A DNA stretch of 64,000 nt from Octopus vulgaris (lineage: Eukaryota). Under the pieces are notes generated by a model. That model was not told the origin of the DNA, searched no databases, and was given only the letters and a program-made list of their open reading frames with translations. Positions 1-56,027 of the stretch are shown one piece after another. The stretch lies in contig OX597814.1 in NCBI GenBank assembly GCA_951406725.2, positions 15,190,001-15,254,000 on the forward strand, given 5' to 3'. Numbering within the stretch: position 1 is the first letter of the stretch; the number at the start of each line of letters is the position of its first letter. Position numbers and translations under genes: made by a program.

Positions 1-1665
1 CCGCAAGTTTCCAAAAAAGAAAGAAACATTATAGGTTACAAAATAAATATAAGATTAAAAAATTGTTAACATTTATTATATTCATTATATATATTATTTC
101 CTGTATAAATTAGTATTACTAAGAAATATTACCGGTCCCTGGCACATTGGGAAAAAAAATGCCGGTACGACACATTAGATAGTTTGAGAAACACTGCCTT
201 AAATGATATGAAACAACACGTCTTTATTTTTATTGACAAACTTTTATCTAGTCTCGGTCTTACATACTTTGTATATGCAGGAAAAGCGAAAACTTTTGCG
301 TATACTTGGAGATGAACTGTTGGTGTAACCAATATATTCTGATAATTTAATTTAATGATTTAACGTTCTTCATTTGCATTGATTTGTGCTTGCCTAATAG
401 TCTTGTGTAATGCCGAGCAGGCATATTAATGTAACCATGTAAGCATAAACTCTTCCACACTGACACTGTTACTATACGAGAAGGCTGTCAAACGGCTGTA
501 ATCCTAAGGTTGTTAAGTGGTTCAATAAATATATTCACCATTCATACTTGTTATGGCTTATATATATAACATGGTTTTATCTGTTTGGGTTATTGTGTTA
601 AGACCACTGAGAAGAAAAGTAGTCGTAAAATTAGCACAGCGTAAGAAAATATTTTAGAAAACGATGACAGCAATAAACGGCCGTCCATTCTCGTTCTAGA
701 GTCCTCTTGAGAATATATTTTTTTCTTAGTGCTGCTCATTATATTCCTATATCCTGAGTAAGGTGTATTAACAAGAACGATAAAAGACGGCAATACTATT
801 GATAGTGATCGCAGTAGTGAAATACAATAAAAAATACGACACAGGATTATAAAAATATCTACAATATAAGCAAAATCAAGAGGGAAACGAATATAAAAAT
901 AAGAGAAACATGAGACTAAAATATTGCAAATGGATAGATAAATGATTGGGGAAATAGATAGGATAGTAGACGATAGCAGACGATAGTACACTTAAAGGTA
1001 TTAAAATAGAAATACACTTAAAATATGCAGATATATAAAGGGAAGAACGTGGACTGGAAAGTGCTTGAACTTGGGCTGCAGAAGTACACGAACGTTTTCA
1101 TGCACACACATGCATACGTACACAAAGCACACTACCACATACACATACATACACACATATGTACAAATATACATAGATACATTCACATCAAGCATGATTA
1201 TTATACAGATAGATACTTGCGTATACATACACGCACTAGTGCGTTCCGTCTGCGCGTTGTGCCATTTGATTTTCGAATCCAAACCTAGAAGAAAGTACTG
1301 ATGTGCATGTTCTTCAAATTGTCGATACAATTTCTTGACAGCAGCCCCTCACAACATTATGAACATTTTCCGGTTCAAAACGCAGATTATCAGAACAAAC
1401 ACTAGCACTGACTACTTCCCAAAAACCCACACCAGCGCACACACTAGCTCTGACCAGTTCCCAGCACCTACAGCACCTACACCATCATCCACACACCTAC
1501 CCATGCACACACGCACACATCAAAGTCACCAGCCCCCTTCCACACGAACATGCACGCTCTCACATACACACGCACGCGCACCTTCATTTTAGGACCACCA
1601 TTACTTTATTATCTCCCCTTCTTCCTATCTCTCCTCTGTGACCCCTCTGTCCTGCATTCGCTAGC

Positions 1666-1844
1666 ATAGATTGCTAGTCACTAAACCTTTTCTATTTTCT
1701 CTCTGTTAATTTCAGGTTTCCTTTCTGTGGAAGAGCGTAGGGTCGAAACGTAAAAGACTTTCTCACTTTCCGAGCGTTAAACTAATACATCTGTTTGTTG
1801 TTTACACACCCATCTTCGTCTTTTATTTTTTTCGTAAACTCTAC

Positions 1845-1847
<3 letters not shown>
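1666..1847 (+). mobile_element. Short hammerhead-bearing (TA)n-associated element, family H1, copy 1
   Basis: About 180 bp homologous to the four other copies. Contains CTTT CTGTGGA AGAGC GTAG GGTC GAAAC GTA AAAG (about 1720-1757). The 3' end abuts (TA)n. Confidence 0.75.
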
Positions 1848-1894
<47 letters not shown>

Positions 1895-4410: not shown

Positions 4411-4581
4411 GAGAGAGAGAGAGAGGTGGATCCAGGCGAGCAACAGATATCGAGTTAGTTCAAAGCTAGGGTTCAAGCGCAATTTCCAACTCGGCACATA
4501 TTGTAATTTCTCATTAGCTTCTTTTATTTCCCATCGTATTGCCACACACTTTTTATGAATACATGAGGTAATGCATGCATA

Positions 4582-4630
<49 letters not shown>

Positions 4631-4834
4631 TGCGTGGGTGTACGGTATGTATTTTCAACTATGCATGTTTTTCAATTGATGTTCACCTAATTGTGGCTGT
4701 ATTGACGTTTGGTGATGTTGTAATACCGCCTTTGTTCCTATAACTGCCCTTGCCTAGTTAGGTTTGGGCATGAAGGGATGAGGCATGTGAGAAATGTGTG
4801 GTCTACAAATACTACCAAATGTGACTACTCACGT

Positions 4835-13246: not shown

Positions 13247-15012
13247 TGTGTACAGTGCTCAGGTGCACTACAACTCATCTAAAGTGTATATATAATCAGG
13301 TGAAGTTTCGGCGGATTTCGGAAAGCATGAGGGCCTTAAAAGATGCAGTGTCATGGCAGTCAACAACTGACGCAGGCAGTTTATTCCATGCTTCAGCAAC
13401 TCTGAGCGTGAAAAAATGTTTCCGAAAGTCATGGGAGCTGTATTGTTTTCTGACTTTGTAGGCATGTCCACGTGTGTTAGACACATGGAGATCAAAAAGG
13501 TGTTCAGTGTTGTTGTTGGTGAGGTGGTTGATAACTTTGTGGGTGTTTACCAAGTCCGTCGCCAAACGCCGGAGCTTCAGTGAATCCATGCCCAGGGAAA
13601 CAAGGCGCTCAGAATATGGTAGGTGTCTGATGGAGGGTATGCGTTTGGTTGCACGTCTCTGGACAGATTCCAGGAGGTCAATGTTCTGTGCAAGATAGGG
13701 GTTCCAAACTGATGATGCGAATTCCAAGGTGTGGTCGTACCATAGCTGTATACAGTTTTAAATAGATGGCTGGAGAGCGGCTAACAAAAGACCTGCTGAG
13801 TGATGCCAAGACACCCTCGGCCTTCCTGACAATCTTAGAGATATGCTTTGACCAACGCAAATCACTGCTGACAGTGATGCCTAGGTCACGCTCGCAAGAG
13901 GATTTCTTGATATCAGTGTTGTGGAGGGAGTATGTGAACGCAGGGTTTTTTCTCCCAAAATGCATGGTGGTACACTTGTCCACAGCCAGTTTCAGTTGCC
14001 AGTCTGTGATCCATTGCTGCATTGTGTCTAGGTCTGATTGCAGGAAAGAGTTGTAGACATCAGGATCTGTCCTTTTGATTTCAAGGTACAGCTTGATGTC
14101 GTCTGCATATTTCAATACTGTGGCATTCTTTAAATTGGCATCTATGTCGTTAATGTATGCCACAAACAAGAGGGGGCCAAGGACAGATCCCTGTGGTACA
14201 CCCGATGACATCTCATATGGTGTAGAGTGCTGTCCTAGAACTGTGACTACCTCCTTTCGGCTGAGGATGAAGGATTTCAACCAGTTAAAAAGGTCATCCC
14301 CCACACCCATTGCAGAGAGTTTCACCATAAGCCTTTTGTGTGGCACAGAGTTGAAAGCCTTAGCAAAGTCAAGGTAGACAACATCCACCCATGAGCCACT
14401 GTCAGTAATCTGAGTAATGTCCTCAAGGAACTCGACAAGCTGGTCACTGCAGCTGGAGTTAGGGACAAATCCATATTGTGAGGGTCGGATGAGACTGTGA
14501 GAGCTCCAGAAGTTCCAGAGTGTTTCTCTGACACACGATTCCATCAGTTTTGCAATACAGCTAGTGAGACTGACTGGGCGATAGTTGACAGGTGATGTGC
14601 GGTCGCCCTTTTTGAACAGAGGAATGACACTGGCAGTTTTCCACTGCTCCGGAGTAGCACCATTGTTGAGACAGTACTGGAAGAAAATAGAAAGCTGGTG
14701 TAAAAGGAAGTGCCTGCCACGTTTGAGAAGCAGGTATGTAACTCCATCGAGACCAGGGGAGGCATAGTTGCGCTTATTTTGAAGGTGACGTCGCAGCATT
14801 GCAGGTGTAAATTCCATAGTTGTTATGGAGTTTGCTGTTAGTGATGGTGAAGATGGTACATTTTGACTTTCAACAGTGAATATGTTTGCATAGCACTCGG
14901 CAATGAGTTCTGCGCATTCCTTGGGGTCGTCAGTGATCTGGTTTGTGTGAGGGTTGCGAAGAGGGCCCACTGGAGAGTGAGGTCTCTGCTTTGAGTGCAC
15001 ATATTTCCAGAG
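13215..15012 (-). mobile_element. 5'-truncated CR1/L2-group LINE with reverse transcriptase (one frameshift near 13727) and (TTA)n tail
   Basis: ORF 13678-15000 has SPGLDG, WKTASVIPLFKKG, NYRPVSLTS, YLDFAKAF, SGVPQGSVLGPLLF and YADD. ORF 13296-13727 continues with the CR1-type C-terminus (LESVQRRATK, TRGHAYK, FFTLRVAEAWNKLP). A trinucleotide tail lies at 13215-13246. Confidence 0.95.
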
Positions 15013-15671
15013 TATCTTTATAAGAATTATAAGTATCTTTATAAGAATTCAAATCAATATGTTTCATATCTGTTTTGGGGGGAAAAAAAGAGTGATCGAC
15101 AAATTACTCACCATAAAATGTCTTTATGAGTCTTATCAAGAGAATCTAAACACAGTTGTCCTGCTACAGAAACCAGACAAATTTTTCTAAAATTTATACC
15201 CTGTAGACTTAGAATAAAAGAATTTGCTAGATATATCTTCGATATATTATGACTGCAAAAAATAACACGAGGTGGTCATATTTGGAGCGCCTTTTATTAG
15301 GGCTCTTATAGAATATCTGCATAGATTAGAAATACGATTCAAATTTTTCGATATATTTATATATTTCACTCATTAAAATTAAAATTGAATCGATCAAAAG
15401 ATATATAAATTTGTATACCTTTTATTATAATTTGCGTCCACAGCATTACATCTATTAACTCATTTTAAGTTCCATTGGTAGTTAATCTCATAAAATATTT
15501 AAGGGTGTCACTAATTCGTTGTTTGCATAGAATACTACTGAAAAAAATCTAGTAAAGCTATGCGCAAAGGTGTTACAGACAAAATGAAGCAAATGAATGT
15601 AGAAAAACAGAAAGGGTTCATGACTGAGGGGATGGTGAATAAGCTTAAAGATGTAATATAGTACAAGTGAC

Positions 15672-17612: not shown

Positions 17613-17614
<2 letters not shown>

Positions 17615-17795
17615 GATAGATCGCTAGCCACTACATATTCCTTATCTTCTCTCCTTGTTTCTTTCTGTATTCCTTTGTGTGGAAGAGCGTAGGCTCGAAA
17701 TGTTAAAGACTCTTTCACTTACCAAGCGTTATACTAATACATCCGTTTATTGTCTATACCACCTGTCTTCGTCTTTCTTTTTGACAATTCTCCCC

Positions 17796-17796
<1 letters not shown>
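17613..17796 (+). mobile_element. Family H1 element, copy 2 (degenerate core)
   Basis: Same sequence family: CTTT GTGTGGA AGAGC GTAG GCTC GAAAT GTT AAAG. Lies between (CT)n and (TA)n. Confidence 0.75.
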
Positions 17797-17865
<69 letters not shown>

Positions 17866-21840: not shown

Positions 21841-23037
21841 GCATTCATTTTAGATAGTTTTAATATCTTTTATAGAAATATATATATAAATATTTTATGG
21901 ATGGTAAACATCTCATAAAATGTAGTGATATTCAACCGGTTTTCACTATTTAAATTAGCTTTTCAAGGGACATTGTGAAGTAACGATTCCTTGACACGCC
22001 GTTTCAGATTTCTTGAAAAGCAAGAATAAATGGAGAGAGTGGATAAAGGGTGGCAAGGGGGACAACTACCCCTTCAGCGTTATTGAATAGCAGTAAATAA
22101 ATTTGATTTTGAAAATGGTTGTAATAATTATGTTGAAAGGTGTTCGCATTGCTAGGGTTGCTATTGTGGGAGTATTGTTGTTTAGACGAATTGGTTGGGT
22201 TTATGTGGTATGGGTGTTTTTGTTTGGAATGAGTTATAGGGGCATTCAGTCCTGTATGGGGCGCTGTGAAGTTGTTTTGTTTTTGTCTGGGAGAGAGAGT
22301 TGAAGTTCCGAAGGTTGAATTCCTATGTTGAGGAGTAGGTAGGATCCCCTGTCTGTTTCTGTTTGTTGGAAGGAAAGAATTGAAATAATAATAATTATTA
22401 TTATTATTCCTAGTCCTTGGGTGGTTCTTACTGGTGTTTAACCTGCTCAAGTTGTAGTCACAATTATGTGGGCCAAACGCACCTTTCCTTGAGATGTAGA
22501 GTTACGCAGCTTAAAGAACAGATTAGTTTTCCTCAATACAGGCAGTTAGCTCCCAGCAAACATATTGATAGGTGTGCAAGAAATAAAACACCGAATTTCC
22601 ATATTTTTCAATTATACCAATGAAAAAAGATTCAGATTTTTTACAAGAAAGCCTAAACAAGGAAAATCTGTTCATACAAAAGTACAGACCACAACATAAT
22701 ATACAAACTTGACCACCTGATCCTTACATATTCCTGTTTCAAAATCAAATTTATTTACCACTATTCAATAATACTGAGGACGTAGTTGCCCCCTAACCAC
22801 CTATTGCCCCCCTTTATACATTATCTCCTTTCCACTTTACTTTTCAAGAAATCACAAACGGCGTGATTCCTTTGTGTCAAGGACTGATTACTTCACAATG
22901 TCCCTTGAAAAGCTAATTTAAATAGTGAAAGCCGGTTGGATATCATTACATTTTATGAGACTATTACCATCCATAAACTATGTATATGTATATATGTATA
23001 TTTATAAAAAGATATTAAAACTATGTGAAATAAATGC
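21841..23037 (+). mobile_element. Penelope-like element remnant: GIY-YIG endonuclease 3' end plus pseudo-LTR, with an inverted pLTR copy upstream
   Basis: ORF 22417-22623 reads YWCLTCSSCSHNYVGQTHLSLRCR...HIDRC (GIY-YIG with CxxC), followed by KENLFIQKYRPQHN. 21841-22114 is a diverged inverted copy of 22737-23037. A hammerhead-like motif lies at about 22898-22945. Inverted pLTRs are typical of PLE insertions. Confidence 0.8.
22898..22945 (+). ncRNA. Degenerate hammerhead motif (U3-A8 core) in the Penelope pLTR; inverted copy at about 21928-21974
   Basis: TGTCCC TTGAAAA GCTA atttaaa TAGT GAAA GCCGGTT GGATA. The inverted copy reads GAAAACCGGTT. Confidence 0.55.
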
Positions 23038-23379: not shown

Positions 23380-25130
23380 TTAGATAAACTTAGATAACTT
23401 AGATATGTTTCGACCAAAGATTGGTCCAGGCCATGTCTAACTTAATAGCACCACCTGATAGGATTATTCGAATCCTGTTTAAGTCAAGTTTTGTTCAAGT
23501 AGTGAGTTCTTGTTGGGTGAGTTGTATCAAGTTTTGTTCAAGTAGTGAGTTCTTGTTGGGTGAGTTGTATCCAATTATGGGTGGCTTATCTGGTATTCTT
23601 TGAAGGAATCTATCCAGACTCCATTTAAAGTTGATGGGATCATTTTCCTCTTTGATCTCCCTCGGGACAATGTTAAATAGGGCAGGGCCTGTTGAGGAAA
23701 AGAAATTATGTTGCCGTGTACATGTATGTTGTGATCTTGAATTGGGCAGGTGACGTATGGCCCGTGGTCCCAGTCTTGGATGAACCTTGAAGCTAATGTT
23801 TAGGTCGTTTGGGCAAAGTTGGCGGTATATTCTCCACATCGTACAAATGATGTACCGCTCACGGCGACGCTGGAGGGAGTAAAGTTTCAAGGCTTTAAGG
23901 CGATCCCAATAATCGAGAGCAGCCATGTCTTCAATTCATTTAGTGAGTACCCTCTGGGGTGACTCAATTCTGGAGATGTTTTGTCTTGTATGGGGAGACC
24001 ACAGTGGGCAGCAGTATTCAAGGTGTGGCCGTACAAAGGAGGAGAAAAGTGGTATGATGACACCTTGTTCTCTGGACCGGAAAGTCCTTAAGATCCAGGA
24101 ACTCATCCTACGAGCTATATCGACCTTCTTGTTGATGTGTGAACTCCAACTGAGATCGTCATCAACAATTACACCCAGGTCTCTGATATTGTTAGAGGCT
24201 GTGAGCGGTTCCTCTGAAGGAAGAGAGTATGGTTGTTTTAGTGAGGAATTTCTTCCAAAATGCATCAGCTCAAATTTTTCCCTCATTCAGTTGCATTTTG
24301 TTTCTGTCTGCCCATTGACTCACAGCATATAGATCAGACTGGAGTTGAGTTCGGTCTGCTTCTTCATTGACGATTTGCTGGAGCTTAGTGTCATCAGCAA
24401 ATATTTTCACTTTGCAGTAATGTACGACACTGGAAAGGTCGTTTGTGTAAATTATGAAGAGTAGCGGACCCAAAACAGTTCCCTGGGGAACACCGCTGGT
24501 GACTTTTGCTGGGCTTGAGTGGACTCCATCAACTACAACATGTTGTGTTTTATTCGCCAGGAAATACTTAATCCAGTGTAGAACTTTTCCACGGATTCCA
24601 ACATTTGCCAATTTTGAGAGTAGGATATTATGGTCTACCCTGTCGAACGCTTTACTGAAGTCAAGATATATGACGTCAGAGTTCGAACCTGTTCCCAAGG
24701 CTTTGAGTACATCTTCAATGTGGTGTAAGAGCTGTGTTAGACAGTCCCTGCCACAGCGAATGCCATGCTGATTTGCATTTAGGAGTTTGTGGGTCTCTAG
24801 GAAGTCAGCTATCCTTGATCTTAACACTCTTTCATACACTTTAATGATGTGGGAGGTGAGTGAGATTGGGCAATAGTTGACTGCGAGGGATCTGTTTCCC
24901 TGTTTGAAAACTGGGACGACCGACTGGGATAAAACTGTTTCGGTATATAACCTGCGTCTAACGAATTTCTCCAGAGGTTGGTCAGAGGGACTGCAAGTTG
25001 GTGTCTACATTCCTTCAGGAGACTAGCGGGGAATCTATCAGGGCCTACAGCAGAGTAATATTTGACCTCATTTATTGCTGCTATATATCTTCCCTGTCTA
25101 TATATCTTCCCTCTCTATATACCTTCCCTG
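23380..25130 (-). mobile_element. Second, older 5'-truncated CR1/L2-group LINE (several frameshifts)
   Basis: Consecutive ORFs 24270-24839 (YLDFSKAFDRVDH, SGVPQGTVLGPLLF, FADD), 23936-24286 (VRPHLEYCCPLWSP) and 23495-23926 (LYSLQRRRERY). A short tandem TAGATAA(A)CT tail lies near 23380-23405. Confidence 0.93.
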
Positions 25131-34644: not shown

Positions 34645-34996
34645 GGTACAGCAGTGGCTTTGTGGTAAGTAGCTTGCTTACCAACCACATGGTTCCGGGT
34701 TCAGTCCCACTGCGTGAAACCTTCGGCAAGTGTCTTCTACTATAGCCACGGGCCAACCAAAGCCTTGTGAGTGGATTTGGTAGACGGAAACTGAAAGAAG
34801 CCCGTCGTATATATGTATGTGCGTGTATATGTTTGTGTGTCTGTGTTTCTCTCCCCAACATCGCTTGACAACCGATGGTGGTATGTTTACTAGGCTTCCA
34901 AAGAATAAGTCCTGGGGTCGATTTGCTCGGCTAAAAGGCGGTGCTCCAGTATCGCCGCAGTCAAAGACTGAAAGAAGTAAAAGAGATAAAAGAGAT
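34645..34996 (+). mobile_element. SINE family A copy with internal deletion
   Basis: Same head, body and AAAGAGA tail. Confidence 0.85.
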
Positions 34997-38341: not shown

Positions 38342-38837
38342 CATACATACACGTGCACATGTATGTCGAGTTCACTTGTTTTATACGACCAGTTAGAGGT
38401 AAAACGTGTTGTCTAAGAAAAGTCTTGCAAATATACCTTAATACTAAATGTGTACCATCCCACCACCTGCCACCTGTTGTTGTCTTGTTTTATATACGTT
38501 GATTAACCATTTAGTAGAGCATACACACATATAAAAACTCAAAAACACACGCACACAGTCACATACACACATAAATATGTGTGTGTGTCTGCTTTTTTGT
38601 GTGTTTATGTGTGTGTGTGTACTTACATAAGACGGTTTTTTTCTATATTAATTTTCATTTAGAAGATATTCTGCAATTGACGTTATTGCTGAAGAGGCTG
38701 TGAAGAAGGATCAAATTCGGAAACACTTGTTTGCTAAATTGTTAATCTCGATGGCATTACTTGTTAAAATCTGAATTGACACCGCAGTGTTTTCCCTCCA
38801 CTCATAACCTGAGTAAAATATCTATGAATGATATCAA

Positions 38838-39244
38838 GGCGCAGGAGTGGCTGTGTGGTAAGTAGCTTGCCTACCAACCACATGGTTCTGGGTTCAGTCC
38901 CACTGCGTGGCATCTTGGGCAAGTGTCTTCTACTATAGCCCCGGGCCGACCAATGCCTTGTGAGTGGAATTGGTAGACGGAAACTGAAAGAAGCCTATCG
39001 TATATATGTATATATATATGCGTGTGTGTGTTTGTGTGAGTGTGTTTGTCCCCCTAACATTGCTTGACAACCGATGCTGGTGTGTTTACGTCCCCGTCAC
39101 TTAGCGGTTCGGCAAAAGTGACCGATAGAATAAGTACTGGGCTTACAAAAACGAATAAGTCCCGGGGTCGATTTGCTCGACTAAAGGCGGTGCTCCAGCA
39201 TGGCCGCAGTCAAATGACTGAAACAAGTAAAAGAGTAAAGAGTA
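38838..39244 (+). mobile_element. tRNA-derived SINE family A (CORE-like body, internal TA/TG microsatellite, AAAGAGT tail), full length
   Basis: A box (TGGCTGTGTGG), B box (GGTTCAGTCCC), CTTGGGCAAGT motif and a repeated tail. Several near-identical copies occur in the window. Confidence 0.88.
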
Positions 39245-45934: not shown

Positions 45935-46094
45935 AGGAGTGGCTGTGTGGTAAGTAGCTTGCTAACCAACCACATGGTTCAGGGTTCAGTCCCACTGCGT
46001 GGCAACTTGGGCGAGTGTCTTCTGCTATAGCCCCGGGCCGACCAATGCCTTGTGAGTGGATTTGGTAGACGGAAACTGAAAGAAGCCTGTCGTA

Positions 46095-46137
<43 letters not shown>

Positions 46138-46489
46138 GGTGAATTGAAGAAATGGAGCTGAACGCAGATTGAACAGAAATCGTTTTATTTCATTCTACAC
46201 GTGTTTCGAAAGGCACAAATTACCAAAATCCGATTGAATAATTTGGTAATTTGTGCCTTTCGAAACACGTGTAGAATGAAATAAAACGATTTCTGTTCAA
46301 TCTGCGTTCAGCTCCATTTCTTCAATTCACCAATAATATTTTAATTTCAATTATCCGCACCAACGCACGGTTGCAACACCATATGGTTGTACCTCCAACC
46401 GTGCTGTTTACTGCTGTGATTTTTGCTACTAAGGTATCGGTTAAACTTTTGATTAATCTACTACAAGATTATTCATCTTTCTATTTCAC

Positions 46490-46548
<59 letters not shown>

Positions 46549-46765
46549 ATGTGTTTGTGTGTCTATGTTTGTCCCCCTAGCATTGCTTGACAACTGATGC
46601 TGGTGTGTTTATGTCCCGACACTTAGCGGTTCGGCAAAAGAGACCGATAGAATAAGTAATGGGCTTACAAAGAATAAGTCCCGGGGTCGATTTGCTCGAC
46701 TAAAAGGCGGTGCTCCAGCATGGCCGCAGTCAAATGACTGAAACAAGTAAAAGAGTAAAAGAGTA
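45935..46765 (+). mobile_element. SINE family A copy interrupted by the fold-back element
   Basis: The head 45935-46095 and tail 46540-46765 are colinear with 38838-39244. Confidence 0.88.
46135..46493 (+). mobile_element. Fold-back element (perfect 93 bp arms, 14 nt loop, ~160 bp tail) inserted in the (TA)n of a SINE
   Basis: 46135-46227 is the exact reverse complement of 46242-46334. It contains the hammerhead 3' half CGAAAC ACGT GTA and is flanked by (TA)n on both sides inside the SINE at 45935-46765. Confidence 0.85.
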
Positions 46766-47924
46766 ATAAGAAAACGTGAACAAAGGCTTTACAATGTATT
46801 CGTTTGATTAGTTAGAAATAGCGAACAAATATCTCTGGAATCAAATATTTCCGTATTTAAAATGGAAAAATGCAATGGATTGTACAGTCCGAGATACTGA
46901 AGCTCAAAGGCTCTGATTCATCGTTCATCTTGATCAATGCTAATCTAAGATAAACACCAGCGCCATCAACAACGAGAATAACAATAATATTACCAATAAT
47001 GAACTGTAGTGGAACCTGTGACAGTAAAAATGGATGTGCATGTTCGTTGTTTGCGTAAATATAATGGCTGAGAAGTAGCAAAGGCAAAAAGTATTGATAA
47101 AAGGAATGAGGAAAATATATAACTTAGCCCAAATAGAATATATCAACCTTGGTAACATACAGTTGTTTCGTTTATTTCTTCTTTTGTTTCAGCGTTGTTC
47201 AAGCTTATAAATACGTAATGAGGACATAAAGAACAAAAGCTAATACATGTTTTGTTTTCTTGATATTTCCCTTCAACAGCGATTACGGTATTGTTATTGG
47301 AAATCAGATTAAGTGATTTTTAGTTCCAATACAAATATTCGTTGAAGCATTTATGACATAAATGGCAGAAAATTTTGCCGAGTCGCATATGATTTGCGAG
47401 ATTAGAAGGAATATAAATTATCAAATATATCACGTTCAGTAAAGCCAGTTAATATCGGAAATAGTTATATGATTTCACCGACGTGGGAAACCATAACATT
47501 GATAGGGTTAAAAGTTTGTTTAAAGTATTACAAATAAGCCACCATTAATGCCATACGCTGTAGGAATAGTGATCAAGGCTAGCAGAAATCTTACAATTTG
47601 GTTTTATGTTGAAATAAACAGGTTTTATAAAGGCACTGACCTTTTCATTAGTTATTAAAACCAGCTACTTGCTACTCACACATATATGTGTACACACGCA
47701 TACACCTTACTCTCACACACATGCATATGTATTTATATAATACATATAGATGTATACCAGATGCTGTAACACATTACTGGTCTCAGTGAACTTTGCATTG
47801 TTTTATCCATCAAATGACGCCACACCACTGACTAGGCGAGCAGGCCAAACTCCCCCTATCATTGAAAGGCGTGCCCGGTCTGGGAGTTGAAGCGACCACC
47901 TAACGGTCGTGCCTTCATATGTAT

Positions 47925-48599
47925 ATATATATATATAAAACTGAAATGCGTTTTACCGCTTGGATCGCTTTCAATGCCACTACATCCCGTCCGATTCGCT
48001 CCAAAATTTACAGGGACATGTAGAATGAGGTGACGATGCTCATAGGCTACCTTAGAAATCCTTATCTTAAAAGGTGTGGTTGCTAGGGGCCATCTTCCTC
48101 ACTCACGCTATTTCCTCCAATATCCTCTCACTCCTCTTCATATATAACTTTGACACTGTCCACTACCGTTATTTAAAGTATCTGTTACTCTCGCTATTTC
48201 CTCTCTTTTTCACTGACTCTTTTCAAATCATCATCATCGTTTAACGTCCGTTTTCCGTGCTAGCACGGGTTGGACAGTGTGACCGGGGTCTGGGAAGCCA
48301 GGAGGCTACACCAGGCTCCAGTCTGATCTGGCAGTGTTTCTACAGGTGGATGACCTTCCTAACGCCAACCACTCTGTGAGTGTAGTGGGTGCTTTTTTCG
48401 TGCCGCCGGCACAGGTGCCAGGGGGGCTCGTAGTGGCAACGATCGGTTAGTGCTTTTTACGTGCCACCGGCACAGAAGCAAGTCAAGGCGGCGCTGCAAT
48501 CGGCCACGTTCGGATGGTGCTTTTTACGTGCTGAAAGGAAGCAACAGAAAGTAACAACCACACTCTTACCCGCGCGTAGAGCGGATCACCTTTAGCTAG
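47925..48599 (+). mobile_element. Probable non-autonomous Helitron with a nested retroelement fragment (48228-48530)
   Basis: Starts with ATATATAAAACTG and ends with CCCGCGCGTAGAGCGG...CTAG|T. A GC-rich insert starting with (CAT)n contains internal GGTGCTTTTTACGTG repeats. Confidence 0.55.
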
Positions 48600-48655
<56 letters not shown>

Positions 48656-48658
<3 letters not shown>

Positions 48659-48847
48659 AGAGTTTACGAAAAAAAACAAAAGACGAAGACAGGTGGTGTA
48701 GAAAACAAACAGTTGTATTAGTATAACGCTCAGGAATAGAAAAAGTCTTTTACTTTTCGAGCCTACGCTCTTCTACAGAAAGGTACACAGAAAAAAACAA
48801 GGAGAGGAAAAAATGTGTGTAGTGGCTAACGATCTATCATGGCGACT
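48656..48847 (-). mobile_element. Family H1 element, copy 3
   Basis: Reverse complement CTTT CTGTAGA AGAGC GTAG GCTC GAAAA GTA AAAG. (TA)n on both sides. Confidence 0.75.
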
Positions 48848-48867
48848 GATATATATATATATATATA

Positions 48868-49077
48868 ACGGGAAGCTTTATGAAAATAAACAAAAGACGA
48901 AGGCAGGTGGAAAACAAACGAACAATTGTATTAGTATGGCGCTCAGGAAATATAAATAAAACAAGTCTTTAACGTTTCGAGCCTACGCTCTTCAACAGAA
49001 AGATACACAGAGAGAGAAAAACACAGAAAGAGGAGAGAAAAAAAATGCGTGCAGTAGCTAACGAATCAACATGGCGA
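48868..49077 (-). mobile_element. Family H1 element, copy 4 (best-preserved ribozyme)
   Basis: Reverse complement TCTTT CTGTTGA A GAGC GTAG GCTC GAAAC GTT AAAGA at 48966-49003. (TA)n on both sides, in tandem with copy 3. Confidence 0.78.
48966..49003 (-). ncRNA. Minimal type I hammerhead ribozyme-like motif, A6U variant
   Basis: Stem I UCUUU/AAAGA, core CUGUUGA, stem II GAGC-GUAG-GCUC, GAAAC, palindromic AACGUU stem III, GUU triplet. Confidence 0.6.
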
Positions 49078-49603
49078 TTTATATATATATATAAACATAT
49101 GTTATAATTATAAACAGGGCCAATTCTCTGCATGGATTTTCAAACCATATTGGTTTCTCATCAGGGGCATCCACATCACACTAACACACTCCAGAGAAAG
49201 AATCAACCAATCTGTTTATATAATCAACAAATGCAGCAGTTATTCTGTGAAGGTGTCTCTAATTTGCATACCGAAAATGTTTAACACTATAAATACCAGC
49301 AACGTGTCAACGGCGATCTTAGTTCACACAGTATTAAGGTATGATGCAAATATGTAACTTATGGTATAATACCTATATATATATATATATATATAAGAGG
49401 TAATGGTGTCATTGAGAACCAAATTTGTCAAGTAATGCAGAATAAGTGCTATAGATAGACAGTAGTTAAGTTCCAGATTCGGTGAGTTTGTGAATAAGGG
49501 GTTCAACGTTGATCATATGTCAGCGTGTGTATATAAGAACTTTTTGCGTAATGAGATAAAAAAACCCAGGCTGTGTAGGTATTAGAACATTTATAGATAG
49601 AAG

Positions 49604-49655
49604 GCCTTGCAGCTGTTTCCAGGATATTTATTAGTTATATCCCTTCATCAGAGAC
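49604..49655 (-). ncRNA. Type I hammerhead ribozyme motif (cleavage triplet mutated to GCA)
   Basis: Reverse complement GTCT CTGATGA A GGGATAT aactaataa ATATCCT G GAAAC AGCT GCA AGGC. Canonical core, 7 bp stem II, near-palindromic stem III, stem I GUCU/AGGC. Confidence 0.7.
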
Positions 49656-49903
49656 GGTGTGGGGGGATAGTTAAATCATAGTTAGTTTAGATGTGATGCA
49701 AAATAGAGAGTGAGGTGGAGGAATGAAAATAGATGTGAGATATGTAGGGATATTGAATTTGTAGATCCTTAAATACTTTTGGAATTTCTTATATATACAC
49801 ATATATATATATATGCATGTATGTATATATATGTATGTATGTATATATATATATATGTATATATGTATATATATATATGTATGTATGTATATTTATATAT
49901 GTA

Positions 49904-49956
<53 letters not shown>

Positions 49957-49957
<1 letters not shown>

Positions 49958-50145
49958 GGGAGAATTCACTAAAAGAAAAAAACAAAAGACGAAGGCAGGT
50001 GGTGTAGACAGCAAACAGATGTATCAGTTTAACGCTCGGGAAGTAAAAAAGTCTTTAACGTTTCGAGGCTATGGTCTTTGACAGAAAGGAACACAGAAAG
50101 AAACAAGGAGAGAAAATAAAGAATGTGTAGTGGCTAGCGATATCT
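49957..50145 (-). mobile_element. Family H1 element, copy 5 (degenerate)
   Basis: Reverse complement CTTT CTGTCAA AGACC ATAG CCTC GAAAC GTT AAAG. Flanked by TA-rich tracts. Confidence 0.72.
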
Positions 50146-50160
50146 ATCTATCTATCTATA

Positions 50161-50192
<32 letters not shown>

Positions 50193-50195
50193 AAA

Positions 50196-50577
50196 TATTA
50201 GGGAATAAATCCAAATTTACAAGGAAAAATCAGATTTAAGATTGAATCCAATTTTATAATAAAATATTATATTATAATAAATTAGAGACAAAACCACCAT
50301 TATGCAAATTAATCAAAGAAAGACTTAAGCCAATACATAAAAAATAAAATAATTTATATAAATTAAAATTTAACAAATGAATAACCACTACGAAGTTTAT
50401 AACTCGCTAAGAAGGTTTAGAAACCACCTGAAGAATGTCTAAGATGTGCTGACACGAAACGATCGTAGTGGTTATTCATTTGTTAAATTTTAATTTATAT
50501 AAATTATTTTATTTTTTATGTATTGGCTTAAGTCTTTCTTTGATTAATTTGCATAATAGTGGTTTTGTCTCTAATTT

Positions 50578-50585
<8 letters not shown>
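50196..50585. mobile_element. Fold-back hammerhead element (family H2) in (TA)n with 123 bp inverted arms
   Basis: 50271-50393 and 50463-50585 are reverse complements with one mismatch. 50196-50270 continues as the reverse complement of the 55930-56003 family tail. Confidence 0.8.
50422..50473 (+). ncRNA. Type I hammerhead ribozyme motif, apparently intact
   Basis: AACCAC CTGAAGA A TGTC taagatgtgct GACA C GAAAC GATC GTA GTGGTT. Perfect 6 bp stem I, palindromic ACGAUCGU stem III, GUA triplet. Confidence 0.82.
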
Positions 50586-50624
<39 letters not shown>

Positions 50625-50627
50625 GAT

Positions 50628-50923
50628 ATAAAAAGCAACTAAGTAACAAGGATGCCCGGGTATTAATGCATTAAGGCCGTTTCAAAGGGTTCCAATTCAT
50701 AGATCAATGCAAGCATTACATCAGTTTAAAATAACCCGGCTTCCTCGGATGCATAGGACCATATAGGCTTTCAACGCACAGGATACTCCATTATAGTTTT
50801 TTTAGCAAAATTTTCATCAGAACTAGAAAATAAATGGATTACATTGATCGATTGGATGGAACCGCTTGAATTGACTGAAATGCACTAATACCTGCACATC
50901 CTCGTTCCTTATTTGCCTTTTAT
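50628..50923. repeat. Diverged inverted repeat next to (TA)n
   Basis: ATAAAAAGCAACTAAGTAACAAGGATGCCCGGGTATTAATGCATT (50628-50672) matches the reverse complement of 50879-50923. Similarity extends inward (GGTTCCA...GATCAATG). Confidence 0.6.
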
Positions 50924-51257
50924 TCACTTGTGTTTCTGGCTCAATAGCTTCATCAGAAAAACAATTGCCTTAGATTATCTTTAGGAGCTAAATGCCCCAA
51001 AGTTATTCATGATTTTAACAGTGGAATTTCAAGTGGACAAAGCGGATTTTTAAATAGTCCAAAGTGGTTTCGTAATCCAATATTTACACGCTATTGTTTC
51101 TAAATTCTTGAGACGTAAACTATCTATTTTCACTCTCACTCGAAAACGCATATGTGTATATATCCATGCATACATATAAACATAAACATATTCACATGCA
51201 TATATACGTGTGTGTGTGTATATTCATGTAGAAATTCAGGCGCAGGATCCTTAAGTG

Positions 51258-52068
51258 CACGAATGGTATCAAAACGTTCCCAAACCAACTCTGTAGTGCA
51301 CTAGCAGATGACAGCACACGCCTGCTAATGCAGTGAGAACTAGCAGTGACCTTCGCTGTGTTTTCTTCACATGTGAAATTTCTGTTTTTGTAATCATGTG
51401 TATGCTGTAGTCTGTGGTTTTGTCATGGACAGGAACAAAGAGCCAACGTGAAATTTTGCATTAAACTTGGGAAGTCTCATACAGAGACATTGACAAGCCC
51501 ATGGCGTCGAGGCAATGTGTCGTACGTAATGTTTCGAGTGACACGAGCACCTCAAAAGCGGAAGGACATCTTTGGAAGACGATGAGAAATCTGGAAGACT
51601 TGCCACGGGAATCACCCCCTATCGAAATGTGCTATTGTGAATTCGCCCCTATGGCCAGCCGTCAATCTAGAGTTTTACGGACATGTTTTGAAGCTTTTGA
51701 GGGAGGAAATTCGGCGAAAGCGACCAGATATATGGGGCACGAAGAATTGGATTCGTCACCGAACTCTCCTCGCTCGTGATTTTCTCGCCAAAATCAACAT
51801 GGTGCCGATTCGGCACCAGTCCTATTCACCAGACTTGGCACTGGCCGACTTCCATCTCTTCAAGATAAAAATACAGCTCAGAAGTCGCTATTTTCGAGAT
51901 CCAGAGCGAATCGTAGTAGGTTCTAGACTCGCTTACGGAAAACGAATGCCAGGCCAGATTCCAAAATTGGTAGGAGCGCTGGACCGGTTTATTGCTGCGA
52001 AAAGTATCTATTTCGAAGGAGATGATGTTAAAACCTAGCAAAATAGGTTATTCTGATACCACCTCATA
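51258..52068 (+). mobile_element. Decayed, internally deleted mariner
   Basis: IRRKRPDIW, HQSYSPDLALADFHLF and IYFEGD motifs, an N-terminal HTH-like remnant, and GGTATCA / TGATACC TIR remnants. Confidence 0.8.
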
Positions 52069-55343: not shown

Positions 55344-56003
55344 AGATTTTGAAAGTTCGTTTAAGTTAGTTTATTTGTATTTTGAAATTAGCTATTTCAT
55401 CTTTAAATATGAAAAATTGAATTTATTAGGTTTTCATTATATACAATTATTTATAGAGATTATTTTAGATCTTGATTATAATATTTGTATATATTTTCAT
55501 TGATAATTTATATATATTAGTCATTTTAAATATTTATGTAATTAGATATAGACTAATATTGATATTAGATTATGGGTTTTCTACCTTATAAATTAAAGTT
55601 AATATTTAACATTATAGTCGATTTCGATATAATCATATTTAATAATAGAGTTTATTATAAGTAAAATTATTATATTATATATATTATTTATATCTTAAAA
55701 ATATTGATTATATTTTTAGATATTTAAACCACCTGATGAATGACTGCGACTCAAAAATTTGAAGACGTTAGCAGGCATGAAACAATCGTAGTGTGATATT
55801 AATTATATTTTTTAATAATTTTGTTATATATTTAAATAATATAAATTAAATAATCTTATGTATTGTTTTAAGTTTTTCATTGTTTGATTTGCCTAATAGT
55901 GGTTTTGTCTCTAATTTAATATAATACAATATTTTACTATAAAATTGGATTCAATCCTAAATCTGATTTTTCCCTGTAAGTTTGGATTTATTCCCTAATA
56001 TTT
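55344..56003 (+). mobile_element. Family H2 element, longer AT-rich copy between two (TA)n tracts
   Basis: Shares the hammerhead and downstream tail (GTGGTTTTGTCTCTAATTTA...AAAATTGGATTCAATC...TTTGGATTTATTCCCTAATA) with 50196-50585. Confidence 0.75.
55726..55793 (+). ncRNA. Type I hammerhead ribozyme motif (same family as 50422)
   Basis: AACCAC CTGATGA ATGACTGC ... GCAGGCAT GAAAC AATC GTA GTG. Canonical core, 7/8 bp stem II with a long loop. Confidence 0.75.
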
Positions 56004-56027
56004 ATTATATATATATATATATATATA

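What the first reader, a model, noticed from the sequence alone, without database searches (positions are those of the whole stretch)
48600..51000. Nested insertion hotspot: at least seven cassettes separated by TA tracts in 2.4 kb
Seen in order: TA, H1, TA, H1, TA, a cassette with partial hammerhead (49137-49164), TA, a cassette with hammerhead (49604-49655), TA mosaic, H1, TA, H2 fold-back, TA, an inverted-repeat cassette. Most ribozyme motifs are on the minus strand, the same sense as the K2P gene. Inference: one ancestral TA microsatellite at a Helitron 3' end was repeatedly split and re-expanded, a self-reinforcing landing pad that may contribute to genome expansion.
Basis: partly seen in the sequence, partly recalled or inferred. 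Interest (0 to 1): 0.7.

Follow-up and report, generated by a model that had tools for sequence, protein, structure and literature searches.

The report
Penelope fragments stacked in TA repeats
Seven short transposon ends, several traced to Penelope-like retroelements and each carrying a full or decayed hammerhead ribozyme-like motif, sit side by side between TA repeats, likely because each element independently inserts into TA repeats; similar stacks occur elsewhere in this genome, so the locus is an unusually pure case of a known kind of process.

Summary
The array is real: seven cassettes between TA tracts. They are side by side, not nested.

Three cassettes (H1) are terminal repeats (pLTRs) of a Neptune-type Penelope-like element; the middle one matches a young family with an intact RT plus GIY-YIG ORF. 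H2 is a Hydra-clade pLTR with an inverted 5' arm. Three others look alike, but no parent ORF was confirmed.

Each family is dispersed on its own and ends at TA: 29 of 37 copies in 1.2 Mb of sampled genome, against 5% for control positions. Nearest-copy identities run from 85 to 100% and are interleaved, so the array grew stepwise. The Helitron has TA on both sides and a 98%-identical 3' part: likely a late arrival, not the founder.

Chains of six or more cassette-sized gaps occur 3 times in 1.2 Mb. A tract beside one element attracts another barely above background (14 of 207 versus 10.6 expected), and neighbours elsewhere show no clear orientation bias.

TA targeting, pLTR hammerheads and microsatellite-built arrays (plant SaTars) are published. 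An animal retroelement version and a conserved A6U hammerhead core were not found in my searches. The scan noted a related TA-inserted hammerhead unit elsewhere in this genome.

The parts
47914..47937 (.). TA tract at the left end of the Helitron
47938..48599 (+). C0: internally deleted non-autonomous Helitron-like element (family 5' TCTATATATAAAACTG, 3' hairpin then CTAG|T); likely a late arrival
   Evidence: 3' part 97-98% to other copies, 5' part up to 93-95%; 13 of 17 other 3' ends abut TA; full copy in L164 about 1.87 kb
48600..48655 (.). TA tract 1
48656..48848 (-). C1 (H1a): pLTR-type fragment of the H1 family, sister subfamily of C2; hammerhead core CUGUAGA about 48778-48755, stem III palindrome broken in this copy
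   Evidence: (24 of 24 relatives end at TA; best 97%)
48849..48867 (.). TA tract 2
48868..49079 (-). C2 (H1b): solo pLTR of a young Neptune-type Penelope-like element; minimal hammerhead with CUGUUGA core about 48998-48975
   Evidence: up to 100% identity; 29 of 29 end at the same base before TA; 99% to both flanking repeats of the full element L340
49080..49093 (.). TA tract 3
49094..49373 (-). C3: old hammerhead-bearing fragment; family has palindromic stem III, this copy has lost it by deletion; parent not confirmed
   Evidence: best 86%; degraded Neptune-type EN upstream in 1 of 29 loci (L075)
49374..49395 (.). TA tract 4
49396..49789 (-). C4: hammerhead-bearing 3' fragment with a 21-nt inverted 5' piece; cleavage triplet GCA where relatives have GUA; parent ORF not found
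   Evidence: best 90%
49790..49954 (.). TA/TG mosaic tract 5
49955..50141 (-). C5 (H1c): older H1 subfamily copy, hammerhead core and stem II mutated
   Evidence: (17 of 19 relatives end at TA; best 92%)
50142..50178 (.). ATCT/TA tract 6
50179..50583 (-). C6 (H2): Hydra-clade pLTR plus tail at the left, joined to an inverted 5' arm; canonical-core hammerhead on the inverted arm, 50428-50459 (+)
   Evidence: (L122 joins a Hydra-type RT fragment to this repeat at 97%)
50584..50621 (.). TA tract 7
50626..50927 (.). C7: old two-armed fragment of a dispersed family; CUGAUGA and GAAA boxes conserved but stems doubtful; right end not at TA; polarity ambiguous; parent not found
   Evidence: (best 85%)

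Best explanation
The array is a side-by-side stack of independent, 5'-truncated transposon ends, four of seven traced to Penelope-like families (three Neptune-type, one Hydra-clade) and the rest likely of the same kind, which likely accumulated over a long time because each element inserts into TA repeats. Shown: family identities, fixed 3' ends at TA, variable 5' ends, inverted 5' arms, mixed ages. Inferred: the element's GIY-YIG endonuclease nicks a TA tract; the RNA 3' end, which ends in UA repeats (the full element's pLTR is itself followed by TTATATAT), anneals and primes reverse transcription; early termination leaves little more than the pLTR, sometimes with an inverted second arm. Each insertion would leave TA on both sides, so one target becomes two and chains grow without any special attraction. 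The Helitron likely landed late at an A|T site in the same TA run.
For: C2 matches both flanking repeats of a full element with a 1082-aa RT plus GIY-YIG ORF; that ORF has DKG, a CX4CxxC linker and the CxxC-H-H endonuclease pattern. 29 of 29 other C2 copies end at the same base before TA; 18 extend upstream into shared parent sequence and 11 do not. C6 is joined to a Hydra-type RT in L122, and full relatives have DKT, CxCX5C and no CCHH. 29 of 37 sampled copies have a TA tract at one or both ends versus 5.3% of control positions. Nearest-copy identities, left to right: 98, 97, 100, 86, 90, 92, 99, 85%. Chain lengths in the sample fall off about geometrically. PMC8557442 describes the same anatomy and TA bias.
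Against: No parent ORF was confirmed for C3, C4 or C7. The all-Penelope make-up is extreme: with 38 of 296 sampled gaps being of the seven profiled families, my arithmetic gives about 0.06 such six-cassette runs per genome, or about 1 if the true share is 20%. One sampled chain (L259) has 4 such elements in 7 gaps (permutation P=0.026). Six of six polarised cassettes here point the same way (chance about 0.03, post hoc). Target-site duplications cannot be read in TA, and no empty allele was seen.
Confidence: 0.85

Rival explanations
1. True positive feedback: an existing pLTR makes the neighbouring TA tract a preferred and oriented target, for example by transcription from the pLTR or by RNA pairing between hammerheads, giving polarised Penelope-only arrays.
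For: All seven cassettes are of this type and six of six point the same way. L259 is Penelope-rich (P=0.026). An earlier cut of the neighbour test gave 12 versus 7.4 expected, P=0.07. Same-family neighbours were co-oriented in 3 of 3 anchored loci.
Against: With more loci the excess shrank to 14 of 207 versus 10.6, P=0.18. Cross-family neighbours were 6 same and 5 opposite. PP transitions were 3 of 139, near what independence gives. L259 has mixed orientations.
Confidence: 0.12
2. One reading: a TA microsatellite born at the Helitron 3' end founded the array.
For: The Helitron 3' end abuts the first tract, and 13 of 17 other copies also end at TA.
Against: TA also lies at its 5' side. Its 3' part is 98% identical to relatives and its 5' part 93-95%, against 85-90% for C3, C4 and C7. 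C3 is present at 98% in runs of three differently labelled organisms, so it is old.
Confidence: 0.04
3. The cassettes are parts of one larger composite element or a segmental duplication.
For: An H1b-TA-H1a pair in the same order occurs at L319.
Against: No C0-C1, C2-C3, C3-C4, C4-C5 or C6-C7 junction recurs in the other loci held; the one C5-C6 case is 225 nt apart at 81%. The L319 pair is only 92% to C2 while lone copies are 100%. Ages differ widely.
Confidence: 0.02

Closest known systems
Penelope-like elements of the Neptune and Hydra clades (Craig et al. 2021, PMC8557442; passages, section 11 and supplement rows read)
   Same: pLTRs with hammerheads, inverted 5'-truncated copies, a tail at one end, insertion into (TA)n. 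The supplement lists Hydra-1_Obim and two octopus Naiads with (TA)n preference; the Hydra-1_oBim hammerhead shares CTGAAGA and the ATGTCTA stem II strand with C6.
   Different: In the passages read, the paper describes single families, not mixed-family stacks, and says the Neptune linker is only hypothesised to drive microsatellite bias. The C6 family is a different Hydra family by eye (KWK for RWK); no alignment to the published sequences was run.
SaTar modular transposon arrays of guayule and rice (Valdes Franco et al. 2018, PMC5907723; abstract and passages read)
   Same: Linear, non-nested arrays of unrelated short elements, each flanked by (TA)n, built by microsatellite targeting.
   Different: SaTars are non-autonomous Mutator-like DNA transposons with TIRs in plants. 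Here the units are retroelement ends with hammerheads, plus a Helitron, in an animal genome.
Minimal hammerheads of PLE pLTRs (Cervera and de la Pena 2014, PMC4209133; parts 1 and 2 of 4 read)
   Same: Type I motif, extra nucleotide before stem II, short palindromic stem III, mostly found as single dispersed copies from truncated elements.
   Different: The H1 families carry U at position 6 (CUGUNGA) in all three subfamilies; the parts read mention only a U3-A8 core variant.
Metazoan non-LTR retrozymes (10.64898/2026.07.22.740005, part 1 of 5 read; PMC7229834, search listing only)
   Same: Short non-coding units with type I hammerheads, proposed to derive from PLE pLTRs.
   Different: Retrozymes are head-to-tail repeats of one unit. 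Here neighbours are different families or subfamilies separated by TA.

Membership tests
Penelope-like element (H1, C1/C2/C5) | Single ORF with RT and C-terminal GIY-YIG endonuclease | tested here: met
   L340 ORF 1082 aa; RVT_1 E=1.4e-7 above cut-off, GIY-YIG E=0.006 below cut-off. Shown for the C2 subfamily; C1 and C5 are linked by 72-78% DNA identity.
Penelope-like element (H1, C1/C2/C5) | Direct pseudo-LTRs flanking the ORF | tested here: met
   L340 1-216 identical to 4483-4698; C2 matches both at 99%
Penelope-like element (H1, C1/C2/C5) | Hammerhead motif in the pLTR | tested here: inconclusive
   Stems and GAAA..UA conserved, but core reads CUGUNGA; fold z=-2.2 for C2; cleavage untested
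Neptune clade | CX2-5CxxC linker, DKG motif, CCHH in the endonuclease | tested here: met
   CSRPRCRTC, DKG, CISCSLC followed by two His
Neptune clade | RT phylogeny with reference clades (to exclude Nematis) | not tested
   No reference proteins were available as tool sequences
Hydra clade (C6) | DKT for DKG, CxCX5C linker, no CCHH, RWK motif | tested here: met
   L342/L343: DKT, CTCRDKSNC, no CxxC between GIY and YIG; KWK in place of RWK. L122 RT fragment is 87% to L342 and joined to the C6 repeat. Pfam gave no RT or EN match for L342.
Hydra clade (C6) | Canonical hammerhead and (TA)n insertion | tested here: met
   CUGAAGA..GAAA CGAUCG UA in 19 of 29 loci; 6 of 6 sampled events at TA
Penelope-like element (C3, C4, C7) | Link to an RT/GIY-YIG ORF | tested here: inconclusive
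   Only L075 (1 of 29 C3 loci) has a degraded co-oriented EN upstream; none for C4; one 27-aa weak hit for C7 in L151
SaTar (plant MULE arrays) | Non-nested array of unrelated elements separated by microsatellite | tested here: met
SaTar (plant MULE arrays) | Units are Mutator-like elements with fixed TIRs | tested here: not met
   One fixed end, variable other end, variable inversion breakpoints, RT parents
Non-LTR retrozyme | Head-to-tail tandem repeats of one hammerhead unit | tested here: not met
   Adjacent units are 77% alike or unrelated and separated by TA
Helitron (C0) | 5' TC, 3' hairpin plus CTRR, insertion between A and T | tested here: met
   Family copies show TC..CTAG|T; short 3' hairpin. 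The 5' TC is not visible in the window copy; no RepHel parent was sought.

The most novel reading that the evidence does not exclude
Penelope-like elements re-target the TA tract beside an earlier pLTR, in the same orientation, so that polarised multi-clade ribozyme arrays build themselves; and the CUGUNGA core kept by three H1 subfamilies, including a young family with many long open ORFs, is an active hammerhead variant that cleaves as a dimer.
Probability: 0.12. Interest if true: 0.65.

Novelty: new variant of a known kind. Interest (0 to 1): 0.32.

Why it matters
It shows that microsatellite-built modular transposon arrays, described for plant DNA transposons, also arise in an animal genome from Penelope-like retroelements of at least two clades sharing one target. 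It gives direct genomic support for TA targeting by a Neptune-type family, and names a young family (at least 70 loci at 99% protein identity over the query, many with frames over 1000 aa) suited to testing target choice. The contribution to genome size is modest: about 0.8% for the five families by my estimate. The A6U core is a cheap, decisive ribozyme test.

Tried and rejected
Rfam at gathering threshold: no match in the window. Dong/R4 LINE as the H1 parent: rejected, the ORF ends in GIY-YIG. MITE reading of C6 and C7: rejected, arms break at variable points and one end carries a tail. No RNA holder listed. Monomer folding z-scores were weak for C4, C6 and C7, as expected for dimer-type motifs, so they were not used as support. 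Tract length did not predict occupancy (4.5, 3.8, 7.2, 5.1%). Low-scoring H1 profile hits on TC-rich DNA were dropped by a 45-bit cut (42 hits became 24). Window-derived loci and one duplicate locus (L150) were left out of the neighbour counts. No earlier findings near this place.

Full report
Observation. The window is G000:C1:15190001-15254000 of a 2.8-Gb animal genome. Its size and repeat content suggest an octopus; that is my inference. Seven TA tracts and seven cassettes are present as described. No cassette interrupts another, so the array is modular rather than nested. It extends left through a Helitron-like element to another TA tract at 47914-47937, and ends near 50927, after which 200 bases had no match in the other loci held.

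H1 is a Penelope pLTR. A genome search with C2 gave 40 scored matches at 92-100%. In 29 of 29 other loci the match ends at the same base and is followed by TA alternation; 18 continue upstream into shared sequence and 11 do not. Upstream lies an ORF with RT and GIY-YIG. A full copy, L340, has identical repeats on both sides of a 1082-aa ORF, and C2 matches both at 99%. The upstream repeat is followed inside the element by TTATATAT. The protein has DKG, a CX4CxxC linker and a CxxC-H-H endonuclease, the Neptune pattern as defined in PMC8557442; Nematis was not excluded by a tree. The family is young: at least 70 of 150 scored loci are 99% identical over the protein query, many in frames over 1000 aa. 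C1 and C5 belong to older sister subfamilies, with best matches of 97% and 92%; their relatives end at TA in 24 of 24 and 17 of 19 loci.

H2 is a Hydra-clade end. C6 copies are 98% alike and mostly two-armed with variable breakpoints; one arm carries an extra tail. L122 joins an RT fragment to this repeat. Full relatives L342 and L343 encode about 840 aa with DKT, CxCX5C and no CCHH, and carry an 84-85% match to the C6 tail and repeat just upstream of the ORF. These are the Hydra traits in section 11 of PMC8557442, where almost all families insert into (TA)n. Against: Pfam found no RT or endonuclease domain in L342, and RWK reads KWK.

C3, C4 and C7. Each is a dispersed family with best matches of 86, 90 and 85%. 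C4 has a fixed 3' end followed by TA in about 25 of 29 loci by eye, and a 21-nt inverted 5' piece. C3 and C4 families have type I hammerheads with palindromic stem III; C7 keeps both core boxes but its stems are doubtful. No parent ORF was confirmed, so their Penelope origin is inferred from anatomy.

Ribozymes. By sequence, only C6 (canonical core) and C2 (family type) are intact. C1 has lost the stem III palindrome, C3 the 3' half, C4 the cleavage-site U, and C5 part of the core. All three H1 subfamilies have U at position 6: CTGTTGA in 28 of 29 C2 relatives, CTGTAGA and CTGTGGA commonest in the others. A related family in the sample has canonical CTGACGA. That A6 is normally invariant is recalled knowledge. 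One search for 'hammerhead' with 'A6U' listed two papers on other subjects, seen as listings only. PMC4209133 reports that such minimal motifs cleave weakly and only as dimers.

Order of events. Nearest-copy identities from left to right are 98 (Helitron 3' part), 97, 100, 86, 90, 92, 99 and 85%. These come from the best 40 scored candidates per search, so they are proxies for age. Old and young units alternate, which fits insertion into any internal tract rather than growth from one end. C3-specific contigs at about 98% occur in runs labelled organisms A, B and C, while its paralogues are at most 86%, so C3 is likely old and shared. The Helitron has TA on both sides and 13 of 17 other copies end at TA; it is best read as another TA-landing passenger.

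How special is the locus? I sampled 120 evenly spaced 10-kb pieces. They hold 811 merged TA tracts and 39 events of the five families; 29 of 37 away from edges touch a TA tract, against 5.3% of control positions. Chains of six or more cassette-sized gaps occur 3 times in 1.2 Mb, roughly 7,000 per genome with wide error. This overstates independent insertions, because an abundant SINE carries an internal TA tract and counts as two gaps. L259 is an independent array with four hammerhead-family fragments in mixed orientation. A tract beside one element has another on its far side in 14 of 207 cases versus 10.6 expected (P=0.18); a smaller earlier set gave 12 of 164 versus 7.4 (P=0.07). Cross-family neighbours were 6 same and 5 opposite in orientation. 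The window's purity is in the far tail, about 0.06 to 1 expected per genome by my arithmetic, and L259 has permutation P=0.026, so mild clustering is not excluded.

Mechanism. Shown: independent dispersed families, fixed 3' ends at TA, variable 5' ends and inversions, two protein-coding parents, mixed ages. Inferred: endonuclease nicking in (TA)n, priming by a UA-ending RNA, truncation that leaves mainly the pLTR, and doubling of targets at each insertion. Untested: tract re-expansion, ribozyme cleavage, transcription of the array, polymorphism.

Comparison with print. TA-biased Penelope-like elements, including octopus Hydra and Naiad families, are in PMC8557442 and its supplement. Hammerheads in pLTRs are in PMC4209133. 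Non-nested arrays built by microsatellite targeting are in PMC5907723 for plant Mutator-like elements. The octopus repeat annotation PMC13282606 (part 1 of 3 and passages read) lists 31 recently active Penelope-like families and treats hotspots at 100-kb scale; its supplement was not read. Three searches did not list a paper on mixed Penelope arrays in TA tracts; subscription papers and Repbase entries were not searchable.

Verdict. A real, well-explained array: a retroelement version of a known array-building process. Interest 0.32.

Noticed in passing
L259 7387-9220: Independent TA-spaced array with four hammerhead-family fragments (H1 twice and two other families) and SINE pieces, in mixed orientation.
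   Followed up: partly
random sample L175-L294, H1 copies: H1 5' ends cluster at the pLTR start: 7 of 22 non-edge copies stop within profile positions 2-6 and 2 extend into the parent, hinting at a preferred template start or solo-pLTR product.
   Followed up: partly
L261 8050-8475; window 34645-34985, 38837-39235, 45935-46755: Very abundant SINE-like element (about 190 hits per half in 1.2 Mb) with an internal CA/TA tract and ends at TA; at window 45935-46755 its halves are about 490 bases apart. tRNA origin is recalled, not tested.
   Followed up: partly
L200 8391-9998 (-), L234 7141-8400 (+): Two further Neptune-type families, about 30% identical to the H1 protein; L234 starts and ends at TA and has a hammerhead-like motif near its 3' end.
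   Followed up: partly
window 1655-1848, 17613-17797 (+) and 55723-56027 (+): Lone H1 copies and a lone C6-family copy elsewhere in the window, oriented opposite to the array.
   Followed up: partly
window 22432-22709 (+): Degraded GIY-YIG fragment of another Penelope-like family (57% to the L234 protein).
   Followed up: no
   Followed up: partly
window 13296-15048, 23495-25004, 51465-52038: LINE-type RT remnants and a mariner-like transposase remnant by eye from the ORF list; labels recalled, not scanned.
   Followed up: no
window 50928-50970 (-): Another CTGATGA..GAAA pair just right of C7, with no match in the other loci held.
   Followed up: partly
L157, L159, L165, L168: The Helitron family forms head-to-tail tandems, and full copies carry a 72-74% match to the C6 repeat internally.
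   Followed up: no
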